The position numbers were made by a program, and so were the translations under genes. Shown here one piece after another: positions 5,657-61,700 of a stretch of 64,000 nucleotides of DNA. The notes under the pieces were generated by a model, which saw only the letters and a list, made by a program, of their open reading frames with translations, ran no database searches and was not told the DNA's origin. How positions within the stretch are numbered: the first letter of the stretch is position 1; each line of letters begins with the position of its first letter. Source of the DNA: Amoebophrya sp. A120 (taxonomy: Eukaryota > Protista > Dinoflagellata); the NCBI GenBank assembly GCA_905178155.1, contig CAJINV010000016.1:248001-312000 (forward strand), given 5' to 3'.

Positions 5657-8600
5657 TTATGGAAACGCTTTCTCCTTACTTTCCTCCGCTCGCCGTGCCT
5701 GCTCCTTTTCGACCAACGCACGTAGTCTTGCGCGCTTCTCTTCGTCCGTCTCAATTCCGCCTTGCGAAGGAGCATTTGTTTCTCTACTTCCTGTTGATAA
5801 AATTTGAATTGGCGACATCATCTCGCTACCCCGTCGATCTCCATCACCGCTCGTTCCCGGAGTTGTCCTAAAACCAGAAGCAGCAACATGACGGGTTGTC
5901 ATACTCGGAGTAGACCCCTTGTAGTCCTTTCGCGCATGGGATCTCATCGTTTTCTGAAACGCGGTGATCAGTGTATTCTCCCTGCGCTTGTAGTGGTAGT
6001 ACTTCGACTTCGCTTCTAAGTAGGCGCGCAGAGCTTCCGGTAAAATTGCTTTTTTCCCCCCATCAATATCTCTCGCGGCTTTATTCGTCCCGTCCGAAGA
6101 GGAAGATACCACATACCTCGACATAGCATTGGCGTCTTGAAAAAGTTCCACGAACTGGAACTCCCATGAGTCCTCACTCGCCATCGCAGCGCGCACCCGG
6201 GCGTCGAAGTCCGACTCTTTTAGCCCAATATCGATGCGAACGTGCGACATCACGGCTGTTACCCAGTCGAAGAGGGAAAAGCCCGTTTCGATTTCGGTCC
6301 TTCTCCCGTCGTGTTGGACAGGAATCACGAGTTTCGGGCAACTTTCTTGCACCGTCTGCACCGCTTGCACCAAACGCGGAGCACGACCGTCAGGGCCTTC
6401 GGCGAGGGTGGTGTAGACGGGTTCTGCTACCTCCCGGTGTAGTTGCTCTCTGGCTTTGCCGCGCCTGCTCTTCTTCGGTTTTTTGTGTACCGCATCCTGT
6501 AGTTGCGACTCAGCCGCGCCGTCCGCTGGGGTCAGCAGTCGTCGGGCTGCTTCTGCTTCGTGCTGCTCTGGATTTTTTAAACGGGTCTCGATTTCCGTCT
6601 CTCTCAGCGCAAGGGCAGGCTCCTGCTTTCCCCTCGTAGTCCCCGGCGTGACAAAATCAATGCTGTAGTTGTCCTTGAACGCAAGAGGAGGTGCGGCGGG
6701 GGCTTCTATCCTGTGTAAAAGTATCGTACTCGTAGTAATCGCAGGCATGCATTACAAATCTCGATCCCAAGGCAAAACAGCATGACAAACTCCATTTCTC
6801 ATTCTAAGTAAATTTGTCATGCGATTTCTACTAGTACGATACTTTTGCAGTTCATAGCTTCCACTGTGCCACAACTTTGAAGACCAGGATACTTCCCCTT
6901 ACGCCCCGCAACTTCGTCCTGTGCGGCCGCCGCGTGTTGGAAGGCTTTCAGGAGGGTTTGTTTATCCAAATTAATGTTCTTCTCCAACTTTTTCCGAAGG
7001 CTTTCTACCGTGCGGAACGCTAACTCGTTTCGGGCTGGACTTGTTCCGGACAGTTGGACGTGGTTCTCCTTTAAGTTCTCTGAGATTTCATCACTAAAAA
7101 CAAGCAAACCGAGCAGCCAGTGGTATTCGGGCAGCCCCAGCCTGTCAAGGTACTCGCGCAACACATAGGACCGAGACGCGTCAAGACTCGCTTCGGCGGT
7201 CAGCGGTTTTGCGGCGCTCGCGACGCAGAAGGCACAAAAGTAGTGGTCGTGGAGATCGTGAGCTGCGCATGCCGCTTCATCTGCTCGAACACCGCTGGGA
7301 GGTCCTCTTTCCTGAGGCACAAACTGGACCACTTTCTTCCCGGTCGCGTCAAACGTGATGCGCTCGGGCGTTCCTCGAACAGGAGTTCTTGCGCCGGGCG
7401 GCGGGTAACTCCTACCGTCTGCGGCCCCGAACTGTTCCCCGGCAGCCGCCTCCTCGCGGAGCATCCCGTCCGCGCCTTCCAGCAGGTGCCGAGCTTCCCG
7501 TCCCCCGCCCGGATTGCTCCGTGCACCAGCGCCGGCAGTGGCTGCTGCTGTTCTCAAACTTTTCTCGTTGCAACAAAAGTAGGGTCGGCCGCAGGGGCAG
7601 GCGCTGCCAAGGGAGCTGCCGTAGTGGAATTTCCATTTGGATCCGGTCTCGGGGTCCGGCTGTTGCAATTTTTTACTACATGTGTACCGCTCCAAACCGC
7701 AGGCGCACAGGTCCGATCCGGTGGGCGTCTGGTTTAGCGCAAGCAGCGCGCTGCGCATACTCCGTTCCTCCGCAGCTCCACTCTGCTCTAGGAGTTTCAA
7801 CATTGCCAAAGCCTGTTGCTGTTCGTGTGCTACCCTCAGGTGATGCGCAGGAGCCGCAGCAGGGTCGCCGCTTGCAGGAGTTGTGAAAGAACGACCCCCG
7901 TGCGGAAGTTGAATCGTGGACGAAGGTCCAGCTGCGGGTACTAGTACAGAAGTCCGACTATTTTTATTCTGAATCATGACGTGGTGCAGCAAATGCCGCA
8001 GTGGGACAGAATAGCCAAAAACGCCACGTCCTCTCCCCGCCGCGGGTAGTTCTTGCTGCTGTTGTGCTGGTCCCGCTGAAGTAGATCCTGCTGGCGACAA
8101 AGCTTCGGCTGCTGTAGTTGACACCGGCAGCATGTCCGGGTGCCACTGGAAATTCAGCATTTCATCCTCATCCTCAACGCGGCCGGAAATAATTCTCCGC
8201 GAACCCTCGTAATATCCTCAGTAAAAACGTCCCCACCCCAGAGTTGTCATGCAAATCTGCATGCCAAAAAGGTTTCTCGTGCGGAGGCCCATGAGAAGCA
8301 TTTTCTAGGGGTGATTTGGAGTCTCTGATGCTCGAATCAGCACGATATGCTAGATCTGTGATGCTGTTGAGCTAGCTAAACAGGATCACACTATGGACCA
8401 AACCTGTCATGCGGAGCAACCAAATCTGGTTGATTTGTCTAGCACATTTCCCATCTTGACTCTGGTGTGGGGACGTTTTTACACAGGATACGTAATGCGC
8501 CATGTTCAGTCGCAAAGACTCCTCGTAGTAGTTTTGGAAGAGAAACGCCTGCTCCAGTAGATCTTCCGGGGGGCTGGAGGATCCACCGGAGGCAAAAAAA

Positions 8601-11600: not shown

Positions 11601-14600
11601 GTAGCAAATTGTTCCCCAAACACTGTAAAACGATCCGGAACCCGGTGACTCCTCATCAATTCCTCTACCGCCTCTGTGGACCATTCTTTTCCCCGCATGG
11701 TGCGCTGGTGCGGCGGCGGTGCAGTCCCTTCGTCTGCTTCGGAGACTGCTTCGTCGGCTTCGGAAAATGTTTCTGCTTCAGCTCCAGCACTTCTGGATAA
11801 AGGTAATGAAGCGGGAGTGGACGAGGGTCGTGGCCCCCGACGTCCACCTCTAGTAGTTCTAGTTTCGCTCGAGGTAGGCACGGCGGCAGCACTAGCACTG
11901 CTAACGTCGTCACCTCGGTCTCGTGCAACACTGTACCTCCCCACAACTTCTGGGTCCCGTACCTGCTCTACCCGGGGACGACTCAGAGAACCCCGAGGAG
12001 GGCTGCCTGGTAGTACTGCAGCCGTGTCTCGTCCGTGGAGTGCACACTCCTCCACGGAGATGGGGTCGTGTTGGTGTCCCTGTTGATAAAAAGAGCGCAC
12101 ATATTCACTTTCACCCTCATCTTCGCCGTCGCTGTCATCATCTGAATCCATCCAATCTGCCCAGGATGGCCTTGTCGACGGAATAGCCGCTAGCCCCAGA
12201 GCAAACGTTGGATTTTCGCCAGGCTCTATTTCGAAATGGTCTGACGCAGGAGCTTCAGGCTCGACTTGATGCCCGCCCACAGGAGCTGCTGATGCTGCAG
12301 GCGCAGCAGGAGCAGCAGCCGGGCCAACATAATCCCCCTTATGATGCACCGCACTGCTGGCCTCCGCCACGTCATCTAGTGTCTTCCAAAGTGCCGCACG
12401 ATTCCTCTTCGAAGAACTTCTTTTGTCGATCGAAGCCTCCGTCCGTCGTCCCCCTGCGCCACCCACAGGAGCGCTGGCGGTGCGCCTTTTGCTTTTAACG
12501 CGCAGCCGACTCTTTGATCGCCGGTCCTTCTCCCTCCCCGTGGTTCGCAGCGGCTGCGCCACAAGAGCTTTACCGCGGGTGGGAGACCTGCCGCGAGGTT
12601 GCGTTGTTCTCGTCTGTGGTCCTTGATGTGTGGATTTACGTCTTTGACCGCCAAGATGAACAGGTGGAGTCTCTACTTGCGGAGGAGCAGCAGGCGAGCT
12701 GCTCCTTCTTCTCCGCCGACTAGCGCGTCGCGGAGCTCCGCCGCCTTCTGAGGAGGCTGCGCGAGTAGCTTTACCGGTAGAAATCGATCTCGATTCCCTA
12801 CTTGTTGCCGATGATCGGTCTTCACCACTCCGGAAATAGCTTCGCGCGCCCTCCGAATTTCGATGCTGCGTCGCGGACGCGGTCGTGGCAGCTGCTGGTA
12901 GATCATTTTTTTCAACATCAGATGCCTCACTCGCACCATCTTCCATATCGCACGACGCTGTTGACCTCCGAAAGAATTTGCTGTCCCATTCCCCAAAGGG
13001 GCGAAACGTGGGCGGGATGCTGCTTGCCGCGACCCCAGTGGAGATTCCTCCGGAAGGATCCCACCCGTGCCTCGTCCGAGAATGCTCGGCCTGCCACTCC
13101 GGCCTCAGCGGCTGCGAAATTGGATAGTGCGGTAGATGTTGATGTTGAAGGGGCGCCTGCATAACTTCTCCAGTACTACTGGTAGCCATAGCATCGTCCC
13201 TACTTGTGTTGACCAACCACACAAACTGCCGCCATGGCATATAATCGGCCGCGTGGTCGGGACCAACTTCTGTTGGTCGGGAGCAACTGGCGCACGAACC
13301 CGCGGCCGAAAACGCTGGCGTGGTGGTGCCTGCAGGGGGCGCAGTAGGTGCAGCTCGCCCGGGACTGTATGGCACCTCTTCACCTGCTGCCCCTGCGGCG
13401 CTAGCAGCGGTCCTTCTTCGCAGCTTCAACTCCGTGTCATACCGCCCCGAAAACTCCTCCAGAACACTTTCTCGCACCTTCGTCATTTCCGCCGCCGCGC
13501 GCGGCCACAGTTTTTGTAACAACAGCCCCGTCTCCCACCTGGAAACCCGGGGAAGGAAAGTTCGCGCAAGTTGCTTCACCACTTTTGACCCACCAGTCTC
13601 GCCCCCGGCTCCCAGGGGCAGTACTTCTCCGCGCGGCGTCTGCATGGCTCCGTGAATAACGCCACTGACCGTGATGGAGTGGAGTAAAGCGGTTTTTTCT
13701 CGGGTGGTGCTCGCAAATAGCAATGGTTCCAGGACAAACGCGAAGAAGAGCTGCAGCAGGGCAGAAGTAGCGGCACTCTGCAAAATCGACTCACTCGACC
13801 ACCACGAGGGTGCGTGTGTGGCAGTCGGGGGCTGAGGAACTGTTTTGGGTCTGTGGCGATCGCGGAGAAATAGCAACATTTTTTGCACAACTTCTTCCCG
13901 GCCTGCTCGAGTCGTGTAGTCGCCCTCTAGAAGTCCACCTCCTCCCTCCACTCGCATTCCTGGCTGCGGCGTGGCTCCTGCTGCTGCGCTAGTTGAACAA
14001 GAACTTGTACCTGCGGGTGCAAGATATTTCTCGTAGAATCCGTGGATAAGGAGCAAAAGCTCAAAGGATTCTGGCGATGCTGTTCTTGCCACCATCAACC
14101 CAGAAGTAGTAGCCCTAGTCTGTGCAGCAATATTTGCCCTGCTGCGACGAGACGACGTAACTCTCTTTGGCTTTCTGTGTTCAAACAAGAACAACACTCC
14201 GTATTGGGAAAGCCACGTCCGCGCAGCGACGTACAGCTCTGCTAGGAGTCTGTGGTATCAAATGCAAAAATGTCTGGATCTGGAAGATTCCGGGATTTGT
14301 GATGCATATTTTGTGTGATCCATGACGCATGTAATGCATGGTCTAGCATCACAGATTTTTAGAGGGCTTCCTGATGCCTATTCCAATTCCGCATGAGAAA
14401 TGCCCTGTCCGCGTAACATAAACTGGAGTCCTGTTGTTGGTCATGCAATACAGATTTTTTCGGAATCCAAAGACAGCATGACAAGTTCTAATCTTCCAGA
14501 CCCAGACATTTTTGCATTTGATATGCGGCGGTTCGGAACGACGATATGCGGAGGAGCTACAGGAGTGGGAGTATCATGATGCGCAGTAGTACTAGCAGCT

Positions 14601-17243
14601 CTTTGTGTAGTACTAGCAGCGGCTGCACCTGCAGCATGCTCTTCGCTGTCGCCAGCATTCGACACGTTTGGAACAAAAGAAAGCGCTCCATCCTTCCAAG
14701 CAGGGTGCGTGAGGAAGAAATTCTCGAAGTTCTCGGCTGCAACAAATTTTGACTGGTCCGCCAGCTGCTGCTCCAGAACAGTTTCGCCTTGCACACGACC
14801 CTGCTGCGTCGAAGGAGCTAAGTCACCCCCTCTAGTACTTCTACTCCGCTCGATCGCATGCAGAGACAAAACTACTTCGTACTTCCTCAGTTGCCTGCTC
14901 CGCAACTTCGCGGGGACGAAATGCTTGGAGTAGCTATCCAGAAATGCACAGCCTTTGTGGTCCCGCAACTGCCCCAGTTTCTTCAGCATCCGCCGACGGA
15001 TGGAGGACTCGGTGGAGAGAGGGTCGACGACGGCTTTAGTGCCGATTATATCTTGCTTAAACACCGTGTAGATTAAGTGTGACACGTAGCTGTGCGCGGA
15101 TTTCCTGATCTTTTTTGGTCTCCTCAACATCCGGTCTCGATCTTCCATTTTTGGTGGCTGGCGTGTCAGAATTTCCTCCAAAGCGAAAACAAAGTCTCCG
15201 CTGTCAGTGTAGTAGCCAGTGACGGACCGTTTCAAAATTTCAGTAACCTTGGAGATTCGTCCAGATTCAGCAGCAGCAGCTCCCAGATTCAGCCAGGAGG
15301 GGAACGCTCCTGCCACCGGAGCGTGCTGTCGTTGCACCCGTTGGCGTTGCGATTGCGAAGCAGCAACACTATAATCTTCGTCTGCACCTCTTACAAGAAC
15401 CCCATTCTTGTCCACCGCAGCGCGCAAAGAGTCCAAAAACTTGAGAAACGATGCTTGCATGAGAAAGATCCGGGGGTCTAATTTCAGGTGGATCTTGTTC
15501 GTGTTTTCGTCCAGCTTGAGAGACTCCAAGATCGAGTCTGAGCGCTGCCGCCCCGCTTTTACCAAAACGGAGTGAAGTTTGTCCAACAGCTGGTAAATCC
15601 GGTGTTGTACGTGTCGAAGCTTCGACGCCGTGGTCCTCCCAGATGACTTTTTAGACCTTCGGGTGGAAATAAATACCTGCGCGGCCGCTCCCCGAACAGA
15701 CCGCCCCGCGCCGCCCCTTCGCATGTTCAGCATGTCGTTGGTGCTGGGCATCCGGGCGACAACGCTGGTGGCGTCAACACTAACACTTCTGGGAGCAGTA
15801 GAAGTCGAAGCACGCATGGCCTCGTACAACGCTGTCAGAACATCGGTCTTCTCTGTCTCGTGCTGCGCACCTCCAGGTCTACTTCCCACAGGACCACCTT
15901 GCGCCGCTCCATGATAACTGCTCGCTGCAGATGAAGATCCAACACCTGGTTGAAAACCCCCCGAGTAGAAGCTCTGCGCTGCTTCCCTTCCATCCGCGAC
16001 GACGTGGCTGAAAATTTCTTTATTCTCCAGATTCAGTTGCATGAAGATTTCGGAATCCATATCCTGAGTAAAAACGTCCCCACCCCATAGTCAAGATGGG
16101 GATTTTGCAACACAAACCTGGAAGTTTTGGGACTCATGCATCACAAGTTGCAGTCCGTAGTGTAGTGCAGGTTAGCAAGGGCAAACGCATCAAAAATCCA
16201 TCTGATTATCCTGGTTGCAGCATTACAAATGCCAAAACACGACTAGAAATTCCTCTCATGGAGATGCCCATTACAACTGTTCCTGTCATTGCAAATCTGC
16301 ATGACAACTCGGGGATGGGACGTTTTTACAAATGATAATCCAGGGCAGCCGAAACGGAAGTCGAGCTAGAAATCGTCATATTCTTCGGATCAGCCAAGTG
16401 CCCAAATTCCGCCTTGTGTTCGCGGAAGATATGGAAGCGTCAGGTTTGAAATCCTCAAAGTTGAAATAATCTGTAATGCATAAAATGCATGACCCGAGGT
16501 ATGTGTGTTGCAGAGCAGGCAAGTGAGGCCGATTGTAAGCCTGTTTGGGGTTACAGCTCGAGCTGCTAAAGTAACACGAGAAAATCACTCTTCTTTGCCT
16601 AAACAGCATGACAAACTGGATTTAGGGACCGCCGAAATTTGTCATGCCCCACTTGGAAACTGGGTTCCAACTGGCGTCCACTTTATGCATGACAAATTAT
16701 TTCAACTTTGTCGATTTCAACTACTCTGACACATCCATAGAAGAGCCAGGTGACGTAGAGCTCGATCAAGCCCTGCAGATCCTGGTCCGCCTGGGTTGGC
16801 AAAATCGCGGCTTCCACCTCGTCAACCGACCAGAGCGGAATCTTATTTCTCGGTGCATCTTGATCTTGCTGCTGGAGGTACTGTGCTGCTTCTACTTGTC
16901 GTGCTCCTGGTCCACCTTCACCGGGTTCGGACGAGGCCGGTGCTGGGGCACGACCACGCTGATCAACATGGGAAGACGCCTTTTTTTTTGATGTAAAACT
17001 ACCTCCCACACCAGCGGGCGGTCCCGTAGCGGGTAGGGGAACGCCGATCCGAGCCGCGGAGGCCGCAGCGGCGGCATACGTCGCTGGACGTCGGGGTGGA
17101 GACCTTCTTGCTGCTGCACTTGGAGATCGTGCAAAAGCTCCCGCACCTGCGGCCGCAGCCCCGAAGATGGGTACGTGGGGGAAGAAGGATGTCAGGAGCA
17201 AAACGGAAAATGTAAAGAGCAGCTGCACCATCACGCTGCACAT
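5657..17243 (-). CDS. Giant (~3,425 aa) low-complexity protein with a signal-peptide-like N-terminus; 6 exons split by 5 introners
   Basis: Removing 315, 283, 273, 283 and 155 nt (element plus one DR) joins ORFs 16683-17261, a short exon, 14441-16060, 8372-14197, 6817-8160 and 5657-6748 in frame. Junctions: TWLF|REHK, AALD|SEIF, NRR|RLLA, MAHY|EGSR, VEA|PAAP. Starts MCSVMVQLLFTFSVLLLTSFF. Confidence 0.85.
6707..6856. mobile_element. Introner family A (non-canonical intron)
   Basis: TIR tatNNNNtgyaaaagtatcgtact; DR gcttc/gcttc; removing 155 nt restores frame. Confidence 0.92.
8213..8490. mobile_element. Introner family C
   Basis: TIR tatcctNNgtaaaaacgtccccac; DR cgtaa/cgtaa; removing 283 nt restores frame. 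Confidence 0.92.
14256..14523. mobile_element. Introner family B
   Basis: TIR tatcaaatgcaaaaatgtctggRtctggaagatt; DR tgtgg/tgcgg; 273 nt, in frame. Confidence 0.92.
16060..16337. mobile_element. Introner family C (opposite orientation to 8213)
   Basis: TIR tatc..gtaaaaacgtccc; DR atcca/atcca; 283 nt, restores frame. Confidence 0.92.
16430..16739. mobile_element. Introner family D
   Basis: TIR tatgga..gtcag..ttgaaatc..caaagttgaaataat; DR gaaga/gaaga; 315 nt, in frame. Confidence 0.92.
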
Positions 17244-36000: not shown

Positions 36001-37097
36001 AGCTTTCGAAAAAGCCAGCGACAATGGCTTTGCGAAAGAACGAAACAGGGATAGGGTGCAGGGATTTCAACATTGCCCACACGGCCCAGGTCTTCACAAC
36101 CCAAGCCGAAAACCCGAGGGCCCCCATGAAAACCAGACCACAAGCGCTGCCCTCCACCTTCGGGGCCACCCGGGTACGAAAATACCAAAGAAGCCCCCAG
36201 GGCGTTCGAAATTCCGAATCCCCTGCAAACGGCCGTAATTTTTAAATTTTAATTCCCGTCGTGGCTTTTCATGGAAAAACACACGCGGGACCAGCGGGGG
36301 GATTTGACAAAAACCCGGCCCCCCGGGCGCGGTGGAAAAGGGCGGAACCCTGCGGGCCCGGGAAACTTCAACGCCCGGGGATGAAAACCGCCGCCCACCC
36401 TAAGGGCTTTGGGGAAATCCCGCAAAAATTAGCTGGGGTTTAGTGCCTCCCGCGGCCCGCGGGCTCTCTGACTGACGCTCGTAAGCCAAGCAGGCGGCCT
36501 AATGTGGCGCAGAGGGTCGGTTCCGCCTAGTCTTTGGGACCTCCGGCAGGAGGGCTTGCCGCGCAAACTAGCCTGGGGCACTCACGCCTGGGCCCGCCGG
36601 TATTGGGGGAATCCCGAAAAATTTAGCCATTTTTTTTGTCAGCCGCGGACCGGGGCCTGCTGGTGGAGTGCGGCACCCCATCGGGGCAGCCGCCCGCCCC
36701 CCCGGGGCCCGGCTTCGGCGCGGCCGAGTTTCGGGGGCGGAAGCCTCCGCGCCTGGGGCCCTTTCCAAAACCACCAGGCCCGCCACACATCTGTGCCGGC
36801 CTGTCGGTAACTGAGCACTTATTAACGCAAGGAAGCCGGGCGGGCGCGCTGGCGACGCTTTATTGTGCCGGCAAGTCTACCCTGATTTCCCCGTCATTCA
36901 ATATTTGATGGCAGCTGGGAGCACGAAACCAATGCCCGCAGGCAATGCGGTGTCCCGGCTGTTTGTGATGCGCCATGGCACCACCACGGCGCCCACGAAA
37001 TCAATGGCAGCCTTTGCGCCGATTCAGCGGAAAACCATTTTGGGCCATGCCTGTTATTTTCAGGAGCGCAGCCACGCAATTTCTAGGCCTGACAGCG

Positions 37098-49000: not shown

Positions 49001-52000
49001 AAGTTCAGATTTGAAGATAACGCCGAGGAGGTGTTAGATCGTGCTCTAGTCGTGCCCCTACTTCGAGAGGGAGATAAAGACAACAAACTGGTACTAGACC
49101 GGGAGAGAAGACTGTTGGACTGCGCCAAAAGGTCATCTTCTTCTCCATCGGAGATGTGAGCATCGTTCTGACCGGCGCTTACTATTTCGTCCAGTCCAGT
49201 ACGATCATCTTCCATCTCCGCAACGTCTGACGAATCCTGCTGATCCGCTTCGCTCGCTGAATTCATCTCATCAGAGGGCGATGTAAGAATGTGCGTATCC
49301 AGCACCGCACCACGGTCTTCTGGTCTTTCAGACGGTGGAGTGAAGGAAGGCAGGCGGTGTAGCACTGCGTCATTGTCGTGTAGTAGTTCCATATTAGCAA
49401 GAGCTTCGTGCTCATCGTCGCCTAGAAGTGCGATTTCTTCAAACCCGGTCGCATCATCAGCTCCTGATGTCCGCAGAACATAATCGTACTCGTGGTCTCC
49501 GTCTCGCTGTGCTCGACGTGCATCGTTATAGTTCATCCGGACACCAGCGCCAACGTCTCCCATTTCCACGTCGCCCTCCTCCTGTTCCCCGACAGGCGAC
49601 GCTGACGGTGTTTCCCCGATTTCCGTTGTGCCCCTGCTCTCGGAGGTCGTCGCGGCAGGAGTCGTGGGCTTCGCGATCCTTGGCAGTAGTTGACCTTCAT
49701 CTTGCAGTAACTGTTCACTTTCTCCTTCTTGTTCCTCCTGCAGATCGTGCAGACGCGGTTGCTGGACTTCTACGTTGGAAAAATCAGCTGGTGAACAACT
49801 TCGGTGGTCCAGGTGGTCACAGTTTTCTCGCACAAGCACACTCTCTGTAGGAGGACCGAGCCGACCTGTGCTTGACGCGGCACCGCCGATAGAACGACCG
49901 GCAGCCATCTCCACATCGCCTGCTAGTTCAACTCGACGCGTACTATCTGGATAATTCTGCTCCTCGCCGTGTGGTTGTACTATGCTCCGTGGAACGTCAG
50001 TAGTCCAAAACCGCATTTCTTGCATCGCCGGAGCCGCACCTGCACTTACAGACGGAAGGGAGGAACCACCTGCCCCGGCAGCACCTGAACTAGTTCTGCC
50101 TGAGCCCCGACTTGATGTTCTGCCACTTGTCGCGCTGCAATCGTGCAGCCGCAAGTCCCCGCTGTTTTTCACCAAGAGGTAGAACAGCAGCGCAGCCGTC
50201 TCCTATGCAAAAACGTCCCCGTAATGCAAATCTGCATGCCGAAGATATCTCTCATGCGGAGCCCCATGGGAAGCATATCCATTTTCTAGCTGTGACGTTT
50301 CGAAATTTGTGATGCCCCAATCAGCGCGATGCGCTACGTCTGTGATGCTACTGCACTAGCTGAAGAGGATTACACTACGAGGCCAAGCTTGTCATGCGTA
50401 ATAGCCAAAGCGTGTTGATTTGTCTTGCAGATTTCCCAACTTGACGATGGGGTGGGGACGTTTTTACATATGATAAACCGCCGCCTCCTCCCCGATCGTG
50501 GAGACCAGGTCCATAATCGCCCGGTGCTGCACAAACGCCGCCACTGTCGACGTCGAGGGTTGCTTCGTAGTGCTTACAGTAGAAGTTCCACCAGCATTCA
50601 TTGTCATTGTGTTCGGAGCATTAGAAACGTTATTTGTCGTCGTGCTCGACGCGCTAGCTCCATTCCCGGCACTGTTCGGCGAAGCAGAACTACTTGCTGA
50701 CGCGTCTGTCGTTCTCCTTCCACGCCACGATTGCCTCCTCCTCCCAGGACCAGCAGCAGCAGCCCCAGCACTACCTCTGTTGTTCGCAGCCCTGTTTACA
50801 CCCCCACGAAGAAACCTCGGGACGACGGAAGGCGGAACCTCCATCCCATCGGCGTTCGCGAGTGTTCGCAGGTAGTCCAGCGTTATTCGATCATGGTCGG
50901 GGTCGAACCCGACGTACCGTTCTGCTTCGTGGTTTCGGCGGCGCAGACGCTGAATCCGGTTGCTCAGACGAGAAATCCGGGCACGCGGGGCACTGGTCGG
51001 TATCGGTTGCTGTGTAGATGAGGGGGTGTTGATCGGTTCTTCTACTTCATCTGTGGCTGTCGTACTAGGAAATAATGGTGGTGCAGCGTTTGGAGCACCT
51101 CCAGTGGGAGAAGCTGCAAGTGGTACTGCTTCGGATGCTGTCATTTCTTCGTCAACGAGCGGGAACAAAACAGCAGCGCGGTCTTGCAATTCGTGTGCGG
51201 TAGAAAAATCATGGTTGATTTCATCATGTTCGAGAGCTGCTGCTGCTCCAGAAGGAGCTGCCAGCAGCGTCTCGCTTTCAGCATCTGCCACGTCGAGAGT
51301 TTGAGTTGATCTGCTTGACGCGGCTTGTCCTTGTTCCGCAGCAGTTCGTAAAAATTCCTGCGGTACTAGGCCTATCCCAAACGGGGCTTCTGATTCTGTG
51401 GCGGGTGGCAGCACGTCGTGGTCATGTGAAGCAGCAACACCTGCTGCAACTCCAGCTACTCCACCACGACCCGGGCTCTGGTCCAGCGAAAGCCCCCGCA
51501 AGGCTGCGGCGGCAGACATGGGGGAGCAGGTGCTGTTTTCATCCAGAGCAAACAGAGACGACGTGGAAGACTTGTTACAGCGTATGCATTGCACAAGTAT
51601 CGTACTCGCACGAATGACAATCATGCATGACAAATTCCATTCCGAAAGAAAAATCAGCATGGCAGACTCCATTTTCGTTCTTGAAAAAATTTGCAATGCC
51701 ATTCATACTAGAACTAGTACGATACTTTTGCAATGCATACAGCGCAAGGTCGAGCAACTGCTCCCCGGTGTAGCTGTGCTGGCGCTGTCCGATACGGGGC
51801 TGGCAGCTGCAAAATCGTGATTTATGATGGAACTGGAGCTGCTACCACTAGAAGTCATTATCTTAGCTCCTGTGGTCCCATCTTCGCCAACAAGGTCGTC
51901 GTTTGAAATCTTCGAGTCGCTTTCTGTCTTCGCAGCACCTACAGCAGAAACATCCTCCAAACAACTGCCGGCCACTGTGCTGTTTTCATCGCGAGGTGCC

Positions 52001-55000
52001 TCGGGTTCTTCTTGTTGCGGCGACGTATCGGTACCTAAGTAGGAGGTTGCAGCAGCAGCACCATCAGCAACAGTAGCACCAGTAGAACTACAGGCAGCAG
52101 CTCCACCTGCAGCGAAAAGTCCGCTCCCACCAGAGATCCCCGACGAGGAAGCGCTGGCACTAGTACCAGCAGTACTACTCCCAGTACTGCCCTGCCGGTG
52201 GAAGTTGGTCTTCTGCAACAGTAGCCACGTCTGAAATTCCTGGTCTACGTGGTTTTTCAGGTTGTTCCAAAGAGATTCGCGCTCCCGTGGCGTGAAGGAT
52301 ATCGTGCGAGGACCACGATGATTGTGACTTTGAAGATTTCCGTCGTTTTCATGAAACAGTGCCAGCAAAGTGTCGATTTTCCGAATGTTCTATCAACAGA
52401 AAAAAAACCAATCCACTTTTTGCATGACAAACATAGAACTTGGTACGTGCTTTGCATGACAAATTGCATGTGGATGGGTGCTTTTTCCTGGATATGCTCA
52501 TCGGATTTTCCAAGAAGCACTGTCGCGGGCAAAGTTCCTGGTGCGTGCGCCACTCGCGGAGGGTCCACGAACAGGCCGCCGGTTTGGCTTGTGCTTGCGC
52601 TTTCGAGGCTGGCGGAAAGAGCTCGGCGGAAGGGGAGGGTGCAGCAGCTGCGTTGGAACCTGATTTTTACTGCGATCATTGCGAGTAGGAACGTAAAAAC
52701 CACACTCTATGGATCAGACGCAGATATCATGCGGCGAAGCCCTCGTCGAGCGGAAATCAGACAACTCAACGCAGAAGCCTCGTGTATGTTCATCTTCTGC
52801 AAAGCAGCAGCAGCAAAAAACCATATTTCAGTACCTCCTGGTCGCGCCACAGAAGAAGAAGAAGAAGCAGAAGAGGCTTCGCCCTGCTGCGGTCCACCCC
52901 CGTCGAAAGCCACTCCGTCTTCCGGCAGTCCTAACTCGAGAACTTCCTCCAATTTCAGCCATGTCCTGAGCTCAAACAGGCTCGGGAAAACCTCGCTTTT
53001 CGACCCGGTGCGGCAAAAGGGACAGCCGGTCTTCAACCCCCTGCCGCGGTCCTCATGGCTCGCGGCGCAGACGTTACAGAGGAAGTGGCCACAGGGGTAA
53101 ATGGCAACCTTTGGGACATCAAGGTCCGACACATTATGCTCAGCAGACTTGCTGCGACGATCGTAGTAGTTTATCCAGGAAAAAACACCCATCCCCATCC
53201 AATTTGTCATGCAAAACATGTATAAATTCCTTTGTTTGTCATGCAAAAAATGGATGGGGATGGGTGTTTTTTCCTGGATATAGTTTTTGTCTTTACTAGA
53301 CAGCGCATCAGTATTTTTGGACGACGACGTAGCAGCTCCGGTAGGAGTGCGACCTCCGGTGTTCGCTGCGCGACCATCTGCGTCTCGCTGTTCCACTACA
53401 TCGTCGCCGGCACAGGACGACAAACAGATTTGGCACTCAGTTTTCGCTTCAGTATGCACAGGAAATTTCCCGCACACGTACAAAAACAAAGAAATGCGGT
53501 CCCCGCATGACAAAACTGGACTTCGAATCTAGTGTAGCATGCCTAGTGTTACACTTCGAATAAGTGAAATTTGTGATGCATTTTGTACATGTACGGGAAA
53601 TTTGTCTTGCATATTCAGCCAACACAGACTCCCCATTGTAATCCATCCATTTCAGGGCGAAAAACAGCCGCAGCTCGTGCGACCGGAGCGGCCGATGAGG
53701 TGTGGTGCGGATATGCACTGCAAAAGCATCGTACTTGTACTAATCGCATTTATGCATTACAAATTTTTCTGTCAACGTCAAGTTAAATCCGCATTACAAA
53801 TTTCATTTCTCATGCTGAGGGAATTTGTCATGCGATTTATACTAGTACGATTATACTTTTGCAGTGCATAGCGGATTTTTCTCAGCCATCTCCTACTTCC
53901 TCTGTTTGGTTCTTGTTTGATCGCTGGTGTCAACATCCTTGTTCCTTTGATGTTCTCTGTCGTGCGTGAAAACCGCCTTTTTGAGTCGGGCTTTCGTCGT
54001 GGTTTTTTCTTGTCTCGTCTTGTGCAACTGCCATCGTCAACGTCGGGAACAAATCCCTGCAGCTGACTCACCCGAGAGGTGGACGACGGTGCATTTGTTG
54101 TTCCCCTCAGCGAAAGAACCTTGCTCTTCATGCCATCGACGGCGGAAGCTGCAGACGAGCATGAGGCTGGACAACCGCGTTGTGTCTGGCCCTGCAAGAT
54201 GGACGACGTTCCGCCTGCGGCACTGTCCATTGTGAGCTGCGTCGGGGCCCGTGCGAGGGTAGAGGACGAGGAGGAACTGGCTGTAGTGGGCAGCCCGTTT
54301 GAGGTTGACATCCCGCCCGACGACCTTCGGGGAAGCACGAGCCCATGTTCTGCATGATCGCCCGCGTCCCGTGGTGCAGCAGCATGACTGGCACCAGCAG
54401 GTCCCGATGATCCCGTTGCACAGCTGCCTAAGAGAGGCTCGTCTGTTATGGATCTGTCAGGATTGAAATCGTCAAGGTTGAAATGATTGGTCATGCATAA
54501 AATGCATAACGCGAAATACGTGTGTTGCAGAGCAGGCAAGGGAGGCCGATTGTAAGCCTGTTTGGAGTTAGAGCTCGAGCTGCTAAAGTAGCATGAGAAG
54601 AGCAGTCATCTTTGCCTAAACAGCATGACAAACTGTATCTAGGTATCACCAAAATTTGTCATGCGCCACTTGCAAACTGGGTTCTAACTGGCATCCATTT
54701 TATGCATCACAAACTATTTCAACTTTGACGATTTCAATCCTGACGCTTCCATATCTGCGGCAGTTACAGTAGAGGACAACAGTGGAACCGCAGCCGACGA
54801 GCAGCTACTGACGATACCACCCTTTCTCGCATCATTGTCCCGGTGCGAAGTAGAAGTAGACCTTGTTCCCGTCGTTCCACTCAAGAAATCGATGGATCGC
54901 GCCCCTGCTTCGTCAGCACTTTCGGATGCTTTTGCTGTTGACCTGCGAGCGTTACTTCCGGGCGAGGAGGGAAGAAAAGATGATCGGGAAGGCAGGGGTA

Positions 55001-55304
55001 GCAGCACTCGAGCTCGGCTAGATGAAGATGAGGGTTCTAGCGTCGGCCCGTTGTCCTGGTCTTCGATATTCAGGTAGGAGGCGGAGGCTGCACTAAAAGG
55101 GGCAAAATTGAAATAAATGACGGGGCTTATTGCGAACAAGCTGTGGAGCAAAAAGAGCAGAAGCTTGCCAGCTCGGGTTCGTCGTGGTCGAGGATGTGAG
55201 GTAGAAGTTGAAGGGTGTTTACCTTTAGGCAGGCTGGAGGGGACGAGCATGACAAAACTGGAACGGGAAAACAAAACCGAAAAAGGAACGGGCAGGTGGG
55301 CCAT
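46044..55304 (-). CDS. ~2,390-aa putative membrane RING-finger (C3HC4-type) protein; 9 introners plus one inferred GT-AG intron
   Basis: Removing 312, 164, 166, 114, 175, 109, 162, 282, 267 and 328 nt gives one frame. CQIC...PCGHFLCNVC...CPFCR is a RING-HC pattern. Hydrophobic N-terminal segment (LLLFLLHSLFAISPVIYF) and Cys-rich hydrophobic segments near the C-terminus. Confidence 0.8.
46185..46507. mobile_element. Introner family D (opposite orientation to 16430 and 54447)
   Basis: TIR tatgggagtgtcagga.cgaaatcg.caaagttga; DR tggtc/cggtc; 328 nt, restores frame. Confidence 0.92.
47176..47437. mobile_element. Introner family B (opposite orientation to 14256 and 58399)
   Basis: TIR tat....tgyaaaaatgtctgggtctggaaga; DR gcgat/gcgat; 267 nt, in frame. 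Confidence 0.92.
50199..50475. mobile_element. Introner family C (left terminus TCT instead of TAT)
   Basis: tctcctatgcaaaaacgtcccc ... ggggacgtttttacatatgata; DR agccg/aaccg; 282 nt, in frame. Confidence 0.85.
51583..51739. mobile_element. Introner family A
   Basis: TIR tatgcattgca.aagtatcgtact; DR cagcg/cagcg; 162 nt, in frame. Confidence 0.92.
52391..52494. mobile_element. Introner family E (opposite orientation to 53172)
   Basis: tatcaacagaaaaaaaaccaatccac ... gtggatgggtgctttttcctggata; DR tgttc/tgctc; 109 nt, gives ENPMS|IRKID. Confidence 0.85.
52660..52834 (-). other. Probable canonical GT-AG intron (175 nt)
   Basis: AG|GTACTG ... AAAATCAG|GT. It removes the in-frame TAG at 52707-52709 and supplies the needed frame change (RPGG|SNAAAAP). 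Confidence 0.6.
53172..53280. mobile_element. Introner family E; 3n and stop-free, inside the RING loop
   Basis: Perfect TIR of about 30 bp tatccaggaaaaaacacccatccccatcca; DR tagtt/tagtt; 114 nt. Confidence 0.92.
53453..53613. mobile_element. Introner family G
   Basis: tatgcacaggaaatttcccgcacacgtacaaaa ... ttttgtacatgtacgggaaatttgtcttgcata; DR ttcag/ttcag; 166 nt, restores frame. Confidence 0.92.
53712..53870. mobile_element. Introner family A
   Basis: TIR tatgcactgcaaaag..tcgtact.gta; DR gcgga/gcgga; 164 nt, restores frame. Confidence 0.92.
54447..54753. mobile_element. Introner family D
   Basis: TIR tatgga...gtcaggattgaaatcgtcaa.gttgaaat; DR tctgt/tctgc; 312 nt, in frame. Confidence 0.92.
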
Positions 55305-55786
55305 ATCTTTCTCTTCCTTATTCAGGTGGCCCTGGCCTCGCAGATGATGATGGACGATTAGGATCACGAGATGAAAATAGAGGACACATCGTGAACAAAA
55401 ATGCCGCTACTTCGTGTGGTATACCAACTATCATCGCTGAAGAACCGGTAACCCAGCTGTTGCCGGCCGCTTTCGCTTAAACACTGGTTTACAAAACAGG
55501 GCTACGTCGTCCTTCGCTCTCCCGCCAAAACACGAGGACGAGAGCAATCGAAATAAAATCAAAACCCCTCGGAGCTGCGGCTGACTCCGTTCAAAGATCA
55601 TGGTCGCGGGGCCAGCGAGTATAGAAGGACGCCGCCTGGCCGGGTATTAAGAGCGTAAGCTTAATGATGTCTTTTGGTATCAACTGTATCTGAGCATGTT
55701 TCATCAGTTCTTCATATCGTGTGTCTCGCGTTCCGTCGGAAAGAATTTCCTTCTGTCTTGTTCAGTGCTTCTGCTTCGACCAATCG

Positions 55787-58700
55787 TCACATACTGACCA
55801 ACCCCGGTCCCCGCATTCGCTTCTCCTCCTCTTCCTCAAACACAACTTTACAATCGCCAAACTTGCGTCGCAAATTTGCTACCCGTAGCATAGAATCTCC
55901 GCACAGACGTCGTGATTCTTGCAAGTGCAATGAGAGAAGTGAACCGTCAGAATAGCCAGTTGCACCATCATCTTGCGGTTCTCCACTCTGCGAGGCAGGG
56001 TTTGGACGACCACCAGGAACAGCACCTCGTTTTGTATCCGGCAGTAGCACGACCTCCGTTCCATCGAAATCCCGGCAATACCGCAACTGTTCCTCTTCCG
56101 GAATGATGATCACGTGTTCAGGCACAGAGGGTGCAACTACAGATGCAGTGCCTGCTCTACTTGGTGACCACACGGCATCCTCTTCCGCTCCTCGCCCCAC
56201 AGGTCTCGTCTCATTCACAGGCCTGCCGTCGCTGGCGCTTGCTGCAATTTGTTTGTTCTTCCCAGACGACCTGGTCACCCGATCAGAAACTACATCAGCG
56301 CCGCCCAACATTCCCAATTTCTTATACCGCTGCTCTGCTTTTTTCTTCGAGCAGAATCTTATTCCGCTCCTGTTCATCTGTGTTCTTGATGAAGATGACT
56401 TATGTCCCCAATAATTTGGTGCAACTGCCCCGTCTTTGTGCTTCTCACTATCAATGCCACCCTCAGTGGCATCTGCTGGAGTAAAGTTATGTTGTCGAAG
56501 ATGCGCAGGAGCACTAGTACCCGTTGCGGTGTTGAATGAGCACTTAGCAACAATGCCGCTTGTTCTATGCATCCGGGCAAAGTTCCCAACTCCGCCATAC
56601 CGCTCGACTATCCTCCGTATTCGCGCCCGAACCAAATGCCTAATTGTGGTTGCTACCGGATCTGTGTTGCCATGAAGATCCTGCGAAGATGCGTTAGAAG
56701 TTCTCGCACTTAGCACCCTCCCGCTCACCGGATCTGCGAAAACCTCCCTCGACAAAAAGGACCCCTGACTCAGCAACGCGTGCCTGCGAGTCCGCAGCAT
56801 GCGTGCTTTCGCGGCAGCAGATGGGCCGGTGGAAAAAACCGCTTCCACGTCTTCCGCAGAGGCGATGACAGGGGCGGATTGGAGACTACTTGTCGTCAAG
56901 TTTGCAGTTGATTTACTGCCTGTGCCTGCTGTAGTTCCTGTTGCTGACATTAATACCCCTGCGCCGTTGGTCGTGGTCGTGTTCAGCCGCGCTTCCAACT
57001 TCTTGGCTTGGATTTCTCGGTCGGACTTCGCCTGTCTCCTCTATCCAAGAAAAAAACAAAAAGTGTGTACGTGTAACGGTATAGGAAAGGCAGCATCACA
57101 AATAATTCGCTTTGCATTTTTTACAGAAAAAAGCTGTCATGCATAGCTACGCGCATGAAAACACGTATGAAACGTGGCTATGACGCACTTCACGCATGAC
57201 AGGCGTAAAAACGGTATTTTTGCATTTTTTGCATCACAAACTTCCAATTTACACAGTTCTTTTGTCTTGGATATCTTCAGCTGTTCGATCAACGCTTTTC
57301 GGGATTGTACCATGTACTGGGAATTGTTTAATGGATTAGGATATCAAATGTAAAAATGTCTGGGTCTGGAAGAATTCATGTTTGTCATGCTTGTCCGGCA
57401 TGACTGTTAAATCTGTCATGCACGTTACCCAAGAGCTCCGCTTTTCTGTGATGCAGTAGTAGTAGTGACCATTTGACTCCTGGCGGGTTGGCGTTAGAAC
57501 AGATCTAGCCTCTGCCAATACCTGGGCGTTAGAACAGATGTAGCCTCTGCCAATACCCCTAGGTGGATACCCGATCCACTTCCTAACTGCAGAAGCGCAG
57601 TTTGTCATGCAGAATAGGCAACACCTAGGAGCTCAGAAACTTGTCATGCTGAGCCAGCATTTGTAGCCTCATCATGAGACGCCACCCAGCATCACAGGCT
57701 TCCAGACCCAGACATATTTGCATTTGATATAGGATTTGAAGATGAACTACCACTGTTAAAATCCGCACCAGATGAAGCAGCAAGACCTGCTCCTGTCGTC
57801 CCTTGTTCAACAGAAGATCCATCGTGAGATATTGTGAGGAAAAATCCCTCCTCCCCACATTGAAAACGCATCCGTCTGAAAATCTGTGATGCGGATTTGT
57901 GCCCACAAATCCTGTCTGTCTTGCACGCAGGCAAATCCAGAGGATCCGCCGCACTATGCAGGCGGTTTGTGATGCTGTTGGGCCTACACTATCGACGTTT
58001 TTCACGCTAGGAGCCTACGCCAAAACATCGCGGCTCAAGCTTGGCATATACCTGCAGTTTCCTCTACTGCAAGACAAATGTGATTTGTGTACTGAAATCC
58101 AGCATCAGAAACTTCTTTTTGATATGGGGTGGGGAGATTTTTCCTTTTGATATGAGAAAGCTCCCCCTCGTCCCCATCAAATTCCTTCCCCGAGAACGGG
58201 TTCGGGGAATCGCAATCGTGCGTCAGAAACGCCTCCAGTTTCTTCCCCAATAAGTCTTTCGTCTCTCGCCATTTCTCGATGCCAAAATGCGTCCGCAAGC
58301 AGCTCTGGATGTGGTTCTCTCGGAAGGGCGTGCCGGCTTCGTACTTGGTTGCCGCGAGAAATTTCACGTACTTCTTCACTTGGTTCTCCCGCTTCTCCTA
58401 TCAACTGTAAAAATGTCTGGGTCTGGAAGATTGCCGGGTTTGTCATGCACATTTTGCATGACTCCTCAAGTCTGTGATGCATGCCCTAGCATCACAGATT
58501 TTTAGAGGGCTTCCTGATGCCTATTCCGCATGACAAATGCTCTTTCCGTGTTGCAAAATTTGGACTCTCTGTGCTGCTCATGCAATACAGATTTTTTTAG
58601 AATCCAAAATCAGCATGACAAGTTGGATTCTTCCAGACCCAGACATTTTTACATTTGATATCTCCCGGTCCGAAGGGGTCAGGTCGGCGAGCTTTTGTTT

Positions 58701-61700
58701 CATGGAGACATTTATCCTGTGCAAAAGTATCGTACTCGTATAAATGCTGGTCTTGCATTACAAATTTCATTGTCAAGGCAAATCAGCATTACAAATTTTA
58801 TTTCTCATGCTGAGAAAATAATTTGTAATGCATTTATACGAGTACGATACTTTTGCAGTTCATAACATTGCTCGTCGGTGTACTACTAGGACCGTTGTCT
58901 TTGTCTCGCAGCTGCTGGTCCTTTCGCGCACCTCCACGACGTGTCTGGCGGTGGTTTTTCGCCGTTCTTGGCGATGGTACGTTACTGAAGATATCTTCAT
59001 TCTCGTGCTCTTCGCTGCTTTCACAATTTTCGGCAGAAATCGAAGGTTTTTCTGTGCCCGTTGCTGTCATCATCATCTGCTCGGTCGAATCATAATCCTT
59101 CGTCTCCGCCCGGGCGGCCAGAGACACGGCAGACAATTCCTCTGCCGCAGTTAATTTTTCAGTTTTTGCAGATCCACCTCCTCCGCTCATCAACAACTTC
59201 CTCGTCACATCCCCGCTCAAACTCGCGACCTTGACTTTCCTATGAAAGCCTCAGAATGGAAATCCTCAAAGTGGAAAAGGAAATAATTTGTGATGCATGA
59301 AATGCAAGGCAAAAAAGACTGTATTGCAAAGGACACATCAATGGAGGCCGACTATTGTCCTGCTAGGGGTGAAGAATTGGGCTGCTAATTAGCACGACAG
59401 AAGGGCACCCCTTTGCCTAACTAGCATAACAGACACGTTTTGAGTGCCCGGGAAATTTGTCATGCGCCGACTACAAATGACGCTTCAACTGGAGTCGTTT
59501 TTTTGCATTACAAATTACCAGCCATGCTCCGGCTACCGCCGGAGCGCAAGGCTGTTGGGCCGGGGCAAGACCGTGCGCCGATTGGACCACAACACCACGG
59601 GCCTGCGGACAACGCAACATGTTGGAGTCCTGCCGCCTGTTTGCGCCGCGCCAACCCGCAGGACCACTTGCGCGCCTCCCGCGCCTTTGGGCGCTCTGCG
59701 CAGGGAGCAGCTGCAAAGAACACCGTGGGCGAACAGAAGCCGCCCGGCGCGAGAGGGTAGCGCGAGAGGGTGGCGCGAGAGGGTGGCGCGAGGGGGTGCG
59801 CGAGAGGGTGGCACGGAAAGACGCCGAACAAAACAAGTCCGTAAGGGCCTGCAGTGCGAGATATGTGTAGCGTCATGCGGATGCGCGCCTATTTCTTTCT
59901 GTTTTTACCTCCTCGCAGACCTCTCGCAGACCCTCCTTTTGACCTCTTTTGGGGGTCCCTGCTAATAGTCCGGCTATACTCGCGGGTAGAGGTCGACCGA
60001 GGTGGCCGAGAGGTGGCCAAGAGGGTCCGCGGGAGGTCGCCCCTTATTCGCGCAACCTCTCGGCACCTCTGTCCACCTCTCGCCTGCCCTCTTTTCTACC
60101 TCTCGGCACCCTCCGAGGCGCTTAGCGGCCCTAAAGGGCGAGCGGTTCGGCGGGCTATACTCGCGCCACCTCTCGCGCACCCTCTCGAACTGCCTCCCGC
60201 GCCACCTCTCCACCTCTGTCGACCTCTTTTTGACCTCTTTTGACCTCTTTTTTACCTCCCGGCCACCTCTCGTCTACCCTCTCTAGACCAATATTTTCGC
60301 ATGAATATAATTTAGACCGGAAAAACGGCCGGAGTACATGTTTTGTCGCGCTTCGCCACTGTCTGGCATTGCTTTTGTTTCGCTTTGGGGGCTGCCCGGG
60401 GCCCGACTAAGATGCCCGGCCCAGGGACCGCGCCGCGCCAGGCGCCGGGCTGCGCGTTCTTTGTTGCCAAGGGTCCGGGATAGATTTCCCGGCCCGGATG
60501 TCGCCCACGGGGGGAAGGCAACGATAGTCCGCGGGGTCTTCCCTTTCCGGCTGCTATCGGCGCGGGGCCCCGCGACGGCATGGGGTGCGGCAGCCGCGCA
60601 TGCATTTGCGCGCCCCTGCGCCGAATATGGTCGCGGGGGCGCAGAAAAAGGAGCGCCCGGCTTCGGCACTTTCGGGGGCGAGGGCCCTCCCCCCGCGAGA
60701 GGGGGCCAAAATGGGGGCCCGAAGTTGGCCCAATTCGGGCCACTTCTTGGGGAGGGGGTAAAATGGGCTCAATCTGGGCCATTTTGCCCCCCCCCTGTAG
60801 CATCGGGGGAAGGCCATTTTTTGCCCCCCCCTAAAAAAGAGGCCGAATTGGCCCAACTTTTGCCTTCTTTTTACCCCCCCCCGGAGGGGGGGTGGTAGGT
60901 TGCCCCCAAGAGGGATTCTTCACGGCCCCTGCCTCAATCCCCCTGAAGAGGCCAGGCCCCCCAGGAAATCTCGCGGCCGGGCTGCTGGTTGCAGTTGTGC
61001 GGGCTCCGAGGTTGGCGCTCCACCACCATGCCGTGCCTGCCGCACGCCCCCGGTGCGAACCATGGCCGGGGGGGCCCAGCGAGGCGCGACCGCCTTGCCG
61101 CCCCTTCCCTCTTCCGGGCGGGCGCCGCCCGCCTGCGGTCATTGAAGCACATAGCAGCAGGCGGCTACCCGCCGGATGACTTGCCCCATCGCCCGGCCGC
61201 ACCATCGCGCCCCCCCTAGTCGCTATGCCCGCGACCCGCGTGCCAACTGGTTGCACGAAAAAACATGTACTTCGGCCGTTTTTCTGGTCTAAATAATAGA
61301 TAGTAATTTCCACTTTGAGGATTTCCAACCTGAGGCTTTCATATTTCCCCGGCCGGGTTTTCAGCGCTTTCTCGGCCACCCACCGGTTGTACCCGTTTCT
61401 TTCCAAGTACACTGCGAGGTCGGCGTTTTTGAAAAGGTTCAAAAAATCAGTACTGTCTATGTCGATATGAACCGCAGATCTCCCGTGTTTGTTCTGCTCC
61501 TCACAGTGTTTCGAAAACTGCTCTACCAGGGAGGCAACCTTCTCCCGATCTTCTTCCGTCACCGGTTGTTCTTCGAAGTCGTAGCGGATAAACGCTTGCA
61601 ACCGCTTCCCCAGAATCTGTTTGATTTCCGTGTGCTTGTGCAGTTTAAACTTTTTCCCCAGCTGCTGCTCGACCTCTCGGACGGTGGCGCGGGACCCGCC

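What the first reader, a model, noticed from the sequence alone, without database searches (positions are those of the whole stretch)
52391..53280. Orientation-independent removal: the same families sit in both directions in same-strand genes
Seen: family E copies at 52391 and 53172 have reverse-complement interiors within one gene. The same holds for C (8213 vs 16060, one gene), D (46185 vs 54447, one gene) and B (47176 vs 14256/58399). Both orientations are frame-compatible. Known: spliceosomal signals (5' splice site, branch point, pyrimidine tract) are directional. Inference: recognition depends on the symmetric TIR stem or on DNA, not on a strand-specific RNA sequence.
Basis: partly seen in the sequence, partly recalled or inferred. 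Interest (0 to 1): 0.75.

Follow-up and report, generated by a model that had tools for sequence, protein, structure and literature searches.

The report
Flippable transposon introns with directional signals
Small hairpin-shaped mobile elements of a kind already described in the parasitic dinoflagellate Amoebophrya sit in either direction inside genes and are missing to the base from likely-RNA assemblies; which of their end letters can change depends on the gene's direction, so they are likely read by a relaxed splicing machine using a few directional letters, not by symmetry alone.

Summary
Observation confirmed. The E, C, D and B pairs have reverse-complement interiors. They are TAT...ATA inverted-repeat elements with 5-nt target duplications, matching the published Amoebophrya A120 introner elements (PMC7789003). 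Likely-RNA contigs (one sample) lack exactly element+5 nt at 8 of 8 listed joints, including both E and both D copies. Orientation relative to the gene is 1:1 (family B 31:31).

The data point to directional reading. One cut register, -1/+4, fits all 8 joints. Of 12 elements with an altered terminal triplet, 5' ends changed only at letter 3 and 3' ends only at the last two (Fisher p=0.0013, pattern found post hoc). The intron then reads N-U-A...A-N6: a GUA-like donor and a candidate branch A at -7. Most likely a relaxed spliceosome (inferred, 0.55). Splicing efficiency by orientation could not be measured. The scan noted similar hairpin introns in other genomes.

The parts
52391..52494 (-). 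E1: 104-nt TAT...ATA inverted-repeat element, imperfect 3' arm; 5-nt duplication with one mismatch; inferred intron 52387-52495
   Evidence: joint 52384>52494 skips 109 nt in run X3, 1 of 4 runs
53172..53280 (-). E2: 109-nt element, interior reversed relative to E1, 30-bp perfect terminal stem; inferred intron 53168-53281
   Evidence: joint 53166>53281 skips 114 nt in X3, same contig as E1
52660..52834 (-). Ordinary GT..AG intron of 175 nt between E2 and E1
   Evidence: piece lengths of the 1349-nt X3 contig add up only with it removed; the joint itself was not listed
46047..55406 (-). Host gene: one 2427-aa frame after removal of nine elements and the ordinary intron; part of a RING finger lies in the exon after E2
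   Evidence: PF13920 E=3.4e-7, profile positions 14-44 of 49
46185..46507 (-). Family D element, reversed relative to 54447; its duplication mismatch puts the cut at -1 or further upstream
   Evidence: joint skips 328 nt in 4 of 4 runs
54447..54753 (-). Family D element
   Evidence: joint skips 312 nt in 2 of 4 runs
47176..47437 (-). Family B element, reversed relative to 14256 and 58399
   Evidence: joint skips 267 nt in 4 of 4 runs
58399..58660 (-). Family B element, other orientation
   Evidence: one X3 contig has 446 nt between 58865 and 57036, equal to the genomic 1828 nt minus five elements+5; single joints not listed
14256..14523 (-). Family B element, same orientation as 58399
   Evidence: frame restored; not RNA-tested
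50199..50475 (-). Family C element whose transcript 3' end is AGA instead of ATA; its duplication mismatch puts the cut at -1 or 0
   Evidence: joint skips 282 nt in 2 of 4 runs
8213..8490 (-). Family C element, same orientation as 50199
   Evidence: not RNA-tested
16060..16337 (-). Family C element, reversed relative to 8213 and 50199
   Evidence: not RNA-tested
16430..16739 (-). Family D element, same orientation as 54447
   Evidence: not RNA-tested
51583..51739 (-). 157-nt element of the short family (with 6707, 53712, 58713)
   Evidence: joint skips 162 nt in 2 of 4 runs
53453..53613 (-). 161-nt element without a family partner in the window
   Evidence: joint skips 166 nt in 1 of 4 runs
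53712..53870 (-). 159-nt element of the short family
   Evidence: a 14-nt loose end at 53871 matches the exon on the far side; no full joint listed

Best explanation
These are non-autonomous inverted-repeat transposon copies (TAT...ATA ends, 5-nt target duplication) that lie in either orientation inside coding exons and are missing, with exactly one duplication's worth of flank, from likely-RNA assemblies; they are likely removed from the pre-mRNA by a relaxed spliceosome that reads a few directional letters which the inverted repeat supplies both ways round. SHOWN: reversed pairs, exact element+5 removal in both orientations for E and D, 1:1 orientation counts, a direction-dependent pattern of terminal variants. 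INFERRED: a single cut register 1 nt before TAT and 4 nt after ATA, so that the intron reads N-U-A-U...A-U-A-N-N-N-N. The U at +2 and A at +3 would act as the GUA-like donor with +1 free; the A at -7 would be the branch nucleotide, with the 3' cut set by distance and no AG needed. The terminal stem would bring the two ends together, standing in for the U1 snRNA that was not found in Amoebophrya. Because TAT at one end is ATA at the other, either orientation offers both signals.
For: Eight of 8 listed joints skip element+5; -1 is the only register compatible with all eight, bracketed by D46185 (-6..-1) and C50199 (-1..0). Among 163 strand-called elements 151 have perfect ends and 12 carry one altered terminal letter: 5 at the transcript 5' end, all at letter 3; 7 at the 3' end, all in the last two letters; none at 5' T-A or at the first A of the 3' ATA (Fisher p=0.0013; 0.003 with two similar copies merged). 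One of these, C50199 ending AGA, is skipped exactly. Three further weakly strand-called variants fit. Table S4 of PMC7789003 lists nine predominant non-canonical sites for A120, all N-T at the 5' end with varied 3' ends, and nine for A25, all T-T, whose repeat starts TTA. That paper finds 83 of 89 spliceosomal proteins and U2, U4, U5, U6 but no U1 in A120. Precedent: the U2 spliceosome removes transposon-derived non-GT/AG introns in Fritillaria. Family B 5' arms are closer to consensus than 3' arms (109 vs 157 mismatches, 60 copies, p=0.007).
Against: No lariat, branch point or spliceosome dependence was observed. The register rests on two bracketing joints and on assuming one register; the paper calls splice sites variable relative to the hairpin and Table S4 may depend on how the aligner placed cuts within the duplication. 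The variant pattern was seen first in 9 cases plus C50199 and then widened on the same data, so it has no independent replicate; 11 of the 12 variant copies have no RNA test. One variant (L001) is ambiguous and the coding model slightly prefers the strand that would contradict the rule (4.2 vs 2.6; p=0.0014 if counted against). Only 5 of 163 elements are GT..AG in this register, +1 shows no G preference, and AG at the 3' end is 19 of 162 against a 6.9% background (p=0.028, one of 17 positions tested). No consensus like a branch-site motif surrounds the -7 A beyond the repeat itself. Other directional hints are weak (p=0.04-0.17). RNA status of X3-X6 is the tool's guess and they are one sample.
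Confidence: 0.55

Rival explanations
1. RNA-level removal by a non-spliceosomal route: a protein endonuclease cuts either side of the stem base with a fixed stagger, reading U-A on the 5' side and A on the 3' side, and a ligase joins the exons, as proposed in outline for euglenid nonconventional introns.
For: Explains exact removal, 1:1 orientation and directional terminal constraint equally well. No GT or AG is needed. Stems are stable: E2 z=-13.3, E1 z=-3.8; mean pairing probability 0.73-0.92 at arm positions 1-3 and 8-13 in 161 elements. Euglenid introns with terminal repeats are released as circles without lariats (review passage).
Against: The protected letters fall where a spliceosome would want them (U+2, A+3, an A close to the 3' end), which this model must treat as coincidence. 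A nearly complete spliceosome is reported and no such enzyme.
Confidence: 0.25
2. One reading: only the symmetric stem matters and no direction-specific letter is read; the cut is measured from the stem base.
For: Families differ in arm sequence yet all pair; family B arms covary at positions 10 (69 paired vs 51 expected) and 14 (88 vs 79) in 103 copies; orientation is 1:1.
Against: Terminal variants segregate by transcript end (p=0.0013). No excess of G-U over A-C arm mismatches in transcript sense (104 vs 129, 172 elements, p=0.12) and no sense-strand stability bias (12 of 22). E1 with a bulged stem and C50199 with a broken terminal pair are still skipped exactly. Covariation is absent at positions 4, 5, 7, 15 and is confounded by subfamily descent and by transposase needs.
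Confidence: 0.12
3. One reading: elements are excised from the DNA (as ciliate internal eliminated sequences are) before transcription.
For: Transposon anatomy; the runs showing joints are only guessed to be RNA; 731 joints were not shown, so a minor excised DNA form is not excluded.
Against: Run X1 contigs pass through E1 (51714-53198, no differences) and through the 57042 element intact (X1 may be the window's own source). The contig lacking E1 and E2 also lacks the ordinary GT..AG intron between them, as an mRNA would. Constraint follows transcript direction. The paper validated such introns by RNA-seq against the genome.
Confidence: 0.04

Closest known systems
Introner elements (IEs) among the non-canonical introns of Amoebophrya sp. 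A120 (Farhat et al. 2021, PMC7789003)
   Same: Terminal inverted repeats starting TAT, seven looser letters, then a run of A; short direct repeats at the borders (5 bp in their example); many families; about 240-260 nt; no GT-AG; removed in RNA; hairpin proposed.
   Different: No difference in the elements was found; they are probably these. Text searches of the paper and its supplement found no statement on element orientation, on a single cut register or on direction-specific letters; its figures (logos, S19-S25) could not be seen.
Either-orientation introners of Polarella glacialis and Aureococcus anophagefferens (Roy et al., bioRxiv 10.1101/2020.10.14.339549)
   Same: Inverted-repeat DNA transposons with target duplications that create introns in either orientation.
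   Different: Those carry or recruit GT/GC/GA and AG sites and the preprint reports a bias to one orientation for the classes named; here neither terminal dinucleotide is needed and counts are 1:1.
Non-GT/AG transposon-derived introns of Fritillaria borealis (as described in bioRxiv 10.1101/2025.08.15.670264 and PMC11282704)
   Same: [quoted passage not shown]
   Different: There the ends are a few fixed dinucleotides (AG-AC, AG-AT); here both terminal dinucleotides would include free letters from the target duplication.
Nonconventional introns of euglenids (review PMC11282704)
   Same: Terminal repeats pairing the ends, duplication-like junction repeats, probable MITE origin.
   Different: Purine/pyrimidine junction consensus and CAG/CTG stem; released as circles; unrelated lineage. 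No junction consensus was seen here.

Membership tests
Amoebophrya A120 introner elements | Inverted repeats of 8-20 nt or more pairing the two intron ends | tested here: met
   367 of 440 terminal-20 positions Watson-Crick paired in 22 window elements; folds
Amoebophrya A120 introner elements | Repeat starts TAT, seven less-conserved letters, then at least three A | tested here: met
   A at positions 11, 12, 13 in 150, 159, 166 of 172 5' arms; TAT itself was required by the finder; family D and the 39618 type have TCA there
Amoebophrya A120 introner elements | Direct repeat of 3-5 nt at the borders | tested here: met
   5 of 5 letters matched in 209 of 253 hits (the finder favours matches); joints skip element+5
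Amoebophrya A120 introner elements | Removed in RNA with non-canonical ends | tested here: met
   8 of 8 joints exact; no slide of any of them gives GT..AG; RNA status of the runs is the tool's guess
Amoebophrya A120 introner elements | Repeated in families across the genome | tested here: met
Amoebophrya A120 introner elements | Host is Amoebophrya A120 | not tested
   Organism names were coded; the assignment rests on the match to the published description
Canonical U2 spliceosomal intron | GT (or GC) at the 5' end and AG at the 3' end | tested here: not met
   5 of 163 in the best register, at most 3 in others
Canonical U2 spliceosomal intron | Lariat branched at an adenosine; dependence on U2/U6 | not testable with these tools
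   Only contigs covered the genes; an invariant A at -7 is a candidate
DNA-eliminated sequences (ciliate IES-like) | Element absent from the expressed DNA | tested here: inconclusive
   X1 contigs carry the elements intact, but most joints were not shown and contigs drop rare forms
Euglenid nonconventional introns | Released as full-length circles without lariat | not testable with these tools
   No raw reads of this strain were available

The most novel reading that the evidence does not exclude
Amoebophrya runs a spliceosome that needs neither G at +1 nor AG at the 3' end: it reads only U-A at +2/+3 and a branch A seven letters from the end, with a transposon's terminal hairpin replacing U1 and setting the 3' cut by distance. 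The palindromic TAT/ATA end encodes donor and branch point in one motif, which lets a transposon insert anywhere, either way round, without scar. Copies with a changed third letter would become one-way elements.
Probability: 0.45. Interest if true: 0.8.

Novelty: already known. Interest (0 to 1): 0.55.

Why it matters
The elements are published, but how tens of thousands of them are spliced without GT-AG or U1 is stated as an open question in that paper. Orientation independence alone does not answer it. The fixed register and the three protected letters turn the question into specific predictions (branch at the -7 A, mutations that should and should not block splicing). If right, it shows how far the spliceosome's terminal-dinucleotide rule can relax and how a DNA transposon can become harmless at any exonic site.

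Tried and rejected
No whole genome is held and the records behind the loci are not held, so no independent replicate set could be fetched; viral contigs had 0 matches to the family B arm. No RNA holder was on record. G-U versus A-C mismatch bias and sense versus antisense folding energy gave no signal. Mutation polarity across duplication positions did not fix the register (37 mismatches); position 1 versus 5 mismatch counts were 11 vs 4, p=0.12. A heuristic hunt for ordinary introns in the loci gave 30 noisy candidates and was not used. A first, stricter strand caller (66 of 238 elements) was replaced by a locus-level one. L005 (415 nt, likely a false element) and L001 (strand unclear) were left out of the variant count. 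Pfam found no transposase in 20 frames tested and only a RING finger in 13 exon pieces. The Aureococcus paper of Huff et al. 2016 was not held. Rejected: reading 1:1 orientation as evidence against directional signals.

Full report
Observation. A scan for TAT...ATA inverted repeats with matching flanks found about two dozen elements of 104-388 nt in the window, each flanked by a 5-nt direct repeat. Removing each element plus 5 nt opens long minus-strand frames. With one ordinary GT..AG intron at 52660-52834 also removed, 55406-46047 becomes a single 2427-aa frame holding E1, E2, both D copies, B47176 and C50199.

Removal. Four runs that the tool guesses to be RNA (one sample, one study, contigs only) show eight joints in 45950-55300, and all eight skip element+5: D46185 (4 of 4 runs), B47176 (4), C50199 (2), 51583 (2), E1 (1), E2 (1), 53453 (1), D54447 (2). 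One 1349-nt contig crosses 51583, E1 and E2, and its pieces add up only if the ordinary intron between E1 and E2 is gone too. For B58399 the evidence is arithmetic: a contig has 446 nt where the genome has 1828, the exact difference for five elements+5. For family C only one orientation was RNA-tested. Contigs of run X1 run through E1 and the 57042 element unchanged; X1 may be the window's own source and most of its joints were not shown. Raw RNA runs X9 and X10 did not cover the genes, so efficiency by orientation is untested.

Orientation counts. A scan with the family B arm gave 143 loci with 253 element hits, against 1 in shuffled sequence. A coding model (16 of 17 held-out window chunks correct, 16 of 16 above the threshold used) gave a strand for 66 of 124 loci, or 150 of 238 unique elements; with 22 window elements this makes 172. 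Forward to reverse counts: B 31:31 (62 of 103 family B copies had a strand), short family 13:10, C 6:5, D 4:3, E 3:2; in open frames only, B 23:25. There is no orientation bias.

In transcript sense, flipped copies share their first and last 25-45 letters, so any signal in the arms reads the same both ways. The Polarella preprint reports several spliceosomal introner classes that create introns in either orientation and cites the same for Aureococcus (passages). Orientation independence therefore cannot separate stem, DNA and directional sequence.

Tests that can separate them. (a) Cut register. Mismatches between the two duplication copies limit where the cut lies. D46185 allows -6 to -1 relative to the T of TAT, C50199 -1 to 0, E1 -2 to +1, D54447 -4 to 0; only -1/+4 fits all eight joints. 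This assumes one register. No slide of any joint gives GT..AG. (b) Terminal variants. A strand-symmetric search allowing one altered terminal letter found 151 perfect and 12 variant elements with a strand call. The five 5' variants are all at letter 3 (TAG, TAG, TAC, TAC, TAA); the seven 3' variants are all in the last two letters (ATC, ATC, ATG, ATG, ACA, ACA, AGA). A symmetric mechanism would spread them evenly; Fisher p=0.0013, 0.003 with the two TAG copies merged. The pattern was noticed and widened on the same data. Of five variants without a strand call, three fit on local re-calling, one (L005) is probably not an element, and L001 is unclear; counted against the rule, p=0.0014. C50199, ending AGA, is skipped exactly. 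(c) Stem. Arms pair well and covary at two of six variable family B positions, but G-U mismatches are not favoured over A-C in transcript sense (104 vs 129), so selection on an RNA stem is not shown apart from the symmetry a transposase needs. (d) Weaker hints: family B 5' arms closer to consensus (109 vs 157, p=0.007, partly a subfamily effect); one arm variant more often at the 3' end (18 of 31 vs 9 of 31, p=0.04); duplication starts at codon position 3 in 63 of 136 (p=0.005), which is phase 0 in this register but also in -4/+1; AG at the 3' end 19 of 162, not significant after correction.

Mechanism. In register -1/+4 the intron reads N-U-A-U...A-U-A-N-N-N-N, and the three letters never seen altered are +2 U, +3 A and -7 A. 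From recalled knowledge, not from a call: +2 U and +3 A are core to the spliceosomal donor read by U6, and a branch A at a short fixed distance from the 3' end occurs in some protists. I infer a spliceosome relaxed at +1 and at the acceptor, with the hairpin joining the ends in place of U1. Table S4 of the Amoebophrya paper fits without having been read this way there: all nine predominant A120 non-canonical sites begin N-T and end variously, and all nine A25 sites begin T-T, where the repeat starts TTA; aligner placement inside the duplication may affect that table. The one ordinary intron examined in the window also has T+2, A+3 and A at -7, in an A-rich end. A nuclease-ligase route reading the same letters is the main rival (0.25); a purely symmetric stem (0.12) and DNA excision (0.04) fit worse.

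Comparison with print. The elements match the A120 introner elements of PMC7789003 in every feature tested; the strain was not tested. Of that paper I read the abstract, sections 10, 11, 12, 16, 32, 36, passages, and supplement parts 2 and 3 of 5 with a term search of the whole file; its figures are pictures and could already show the register. Passages only: PMC12130899, PMC11282704, PMC9860276, PMC12621601, PMC12005148, PMC11453091, and preprints 10.1101/2020.10.14.339549 and 10.1101/2025.08.15.670264; preprint supplements are closed. Huff et al. 2016, Roy et al. 2023 and Henriet et al. 2019 were not read. Eight searches listed no paper that, in the listings and passages seen, reports orientation counts, one register or a branch point for Amoebophrya elements; subscription journals are mostly outside the library.

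Verdict. The feature is real and belongs to an already described system; either-orientation insertion is expected for such elements. Interest 0.55.

Noticed in passing
window 59241-61343: A 2103-nt TAT...ATA element with D-like arms and a perfect 5-nt duplication, holding a nested 993-nt inverted-repeat element (60306-61298). Removing it with five other elements gives one 1573-aa frame; a candidate long intron of the same kind. No Pfam match in three frames inside it.
   Followed up: partly
window 38781-39132: Family B-like element without a matching duplication; removal of element+5 still keeps a 999-aa frame.
   Followed up: partly
window 45656-45960: Decayed family B-like element with no clear duplication, past the end of the host gene's frame.
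   Followed up: no
window 39240-40719: 867-nt tandem duplication (98% over 300 nt) that copied one element (39618 and 40485) together with its exon flanks.
   Followed up: no
window 24000-37000: G+C-rich (60-65%) repeat zone with a 97-nt inverted repeat (26650-27847) around short tandem arrays and nested inverted repeats at 35260-36463; no Pfam match in the frames tested.
   Followed up: partly
window 18883-23628: Five diverged tandem copies of a unit of about 1.1-1.2 kb in A+T-rich DNA.
   Followed up: no
L001: An ABC-transporter-like nucleotide-binding stretch reads on the minus strand while a membrane-like frame crossing three elements reads on the plus strand (recognised by eye): an inversion or a misassembly at a repeat.
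   Followed up: partly
window 58612-58662: Raw RNA reads of run X9, which do not cover the genes, carry a family B-like arm in a different context (70 reads), so a related strain expresses or retains a related element.
   Followed up: no
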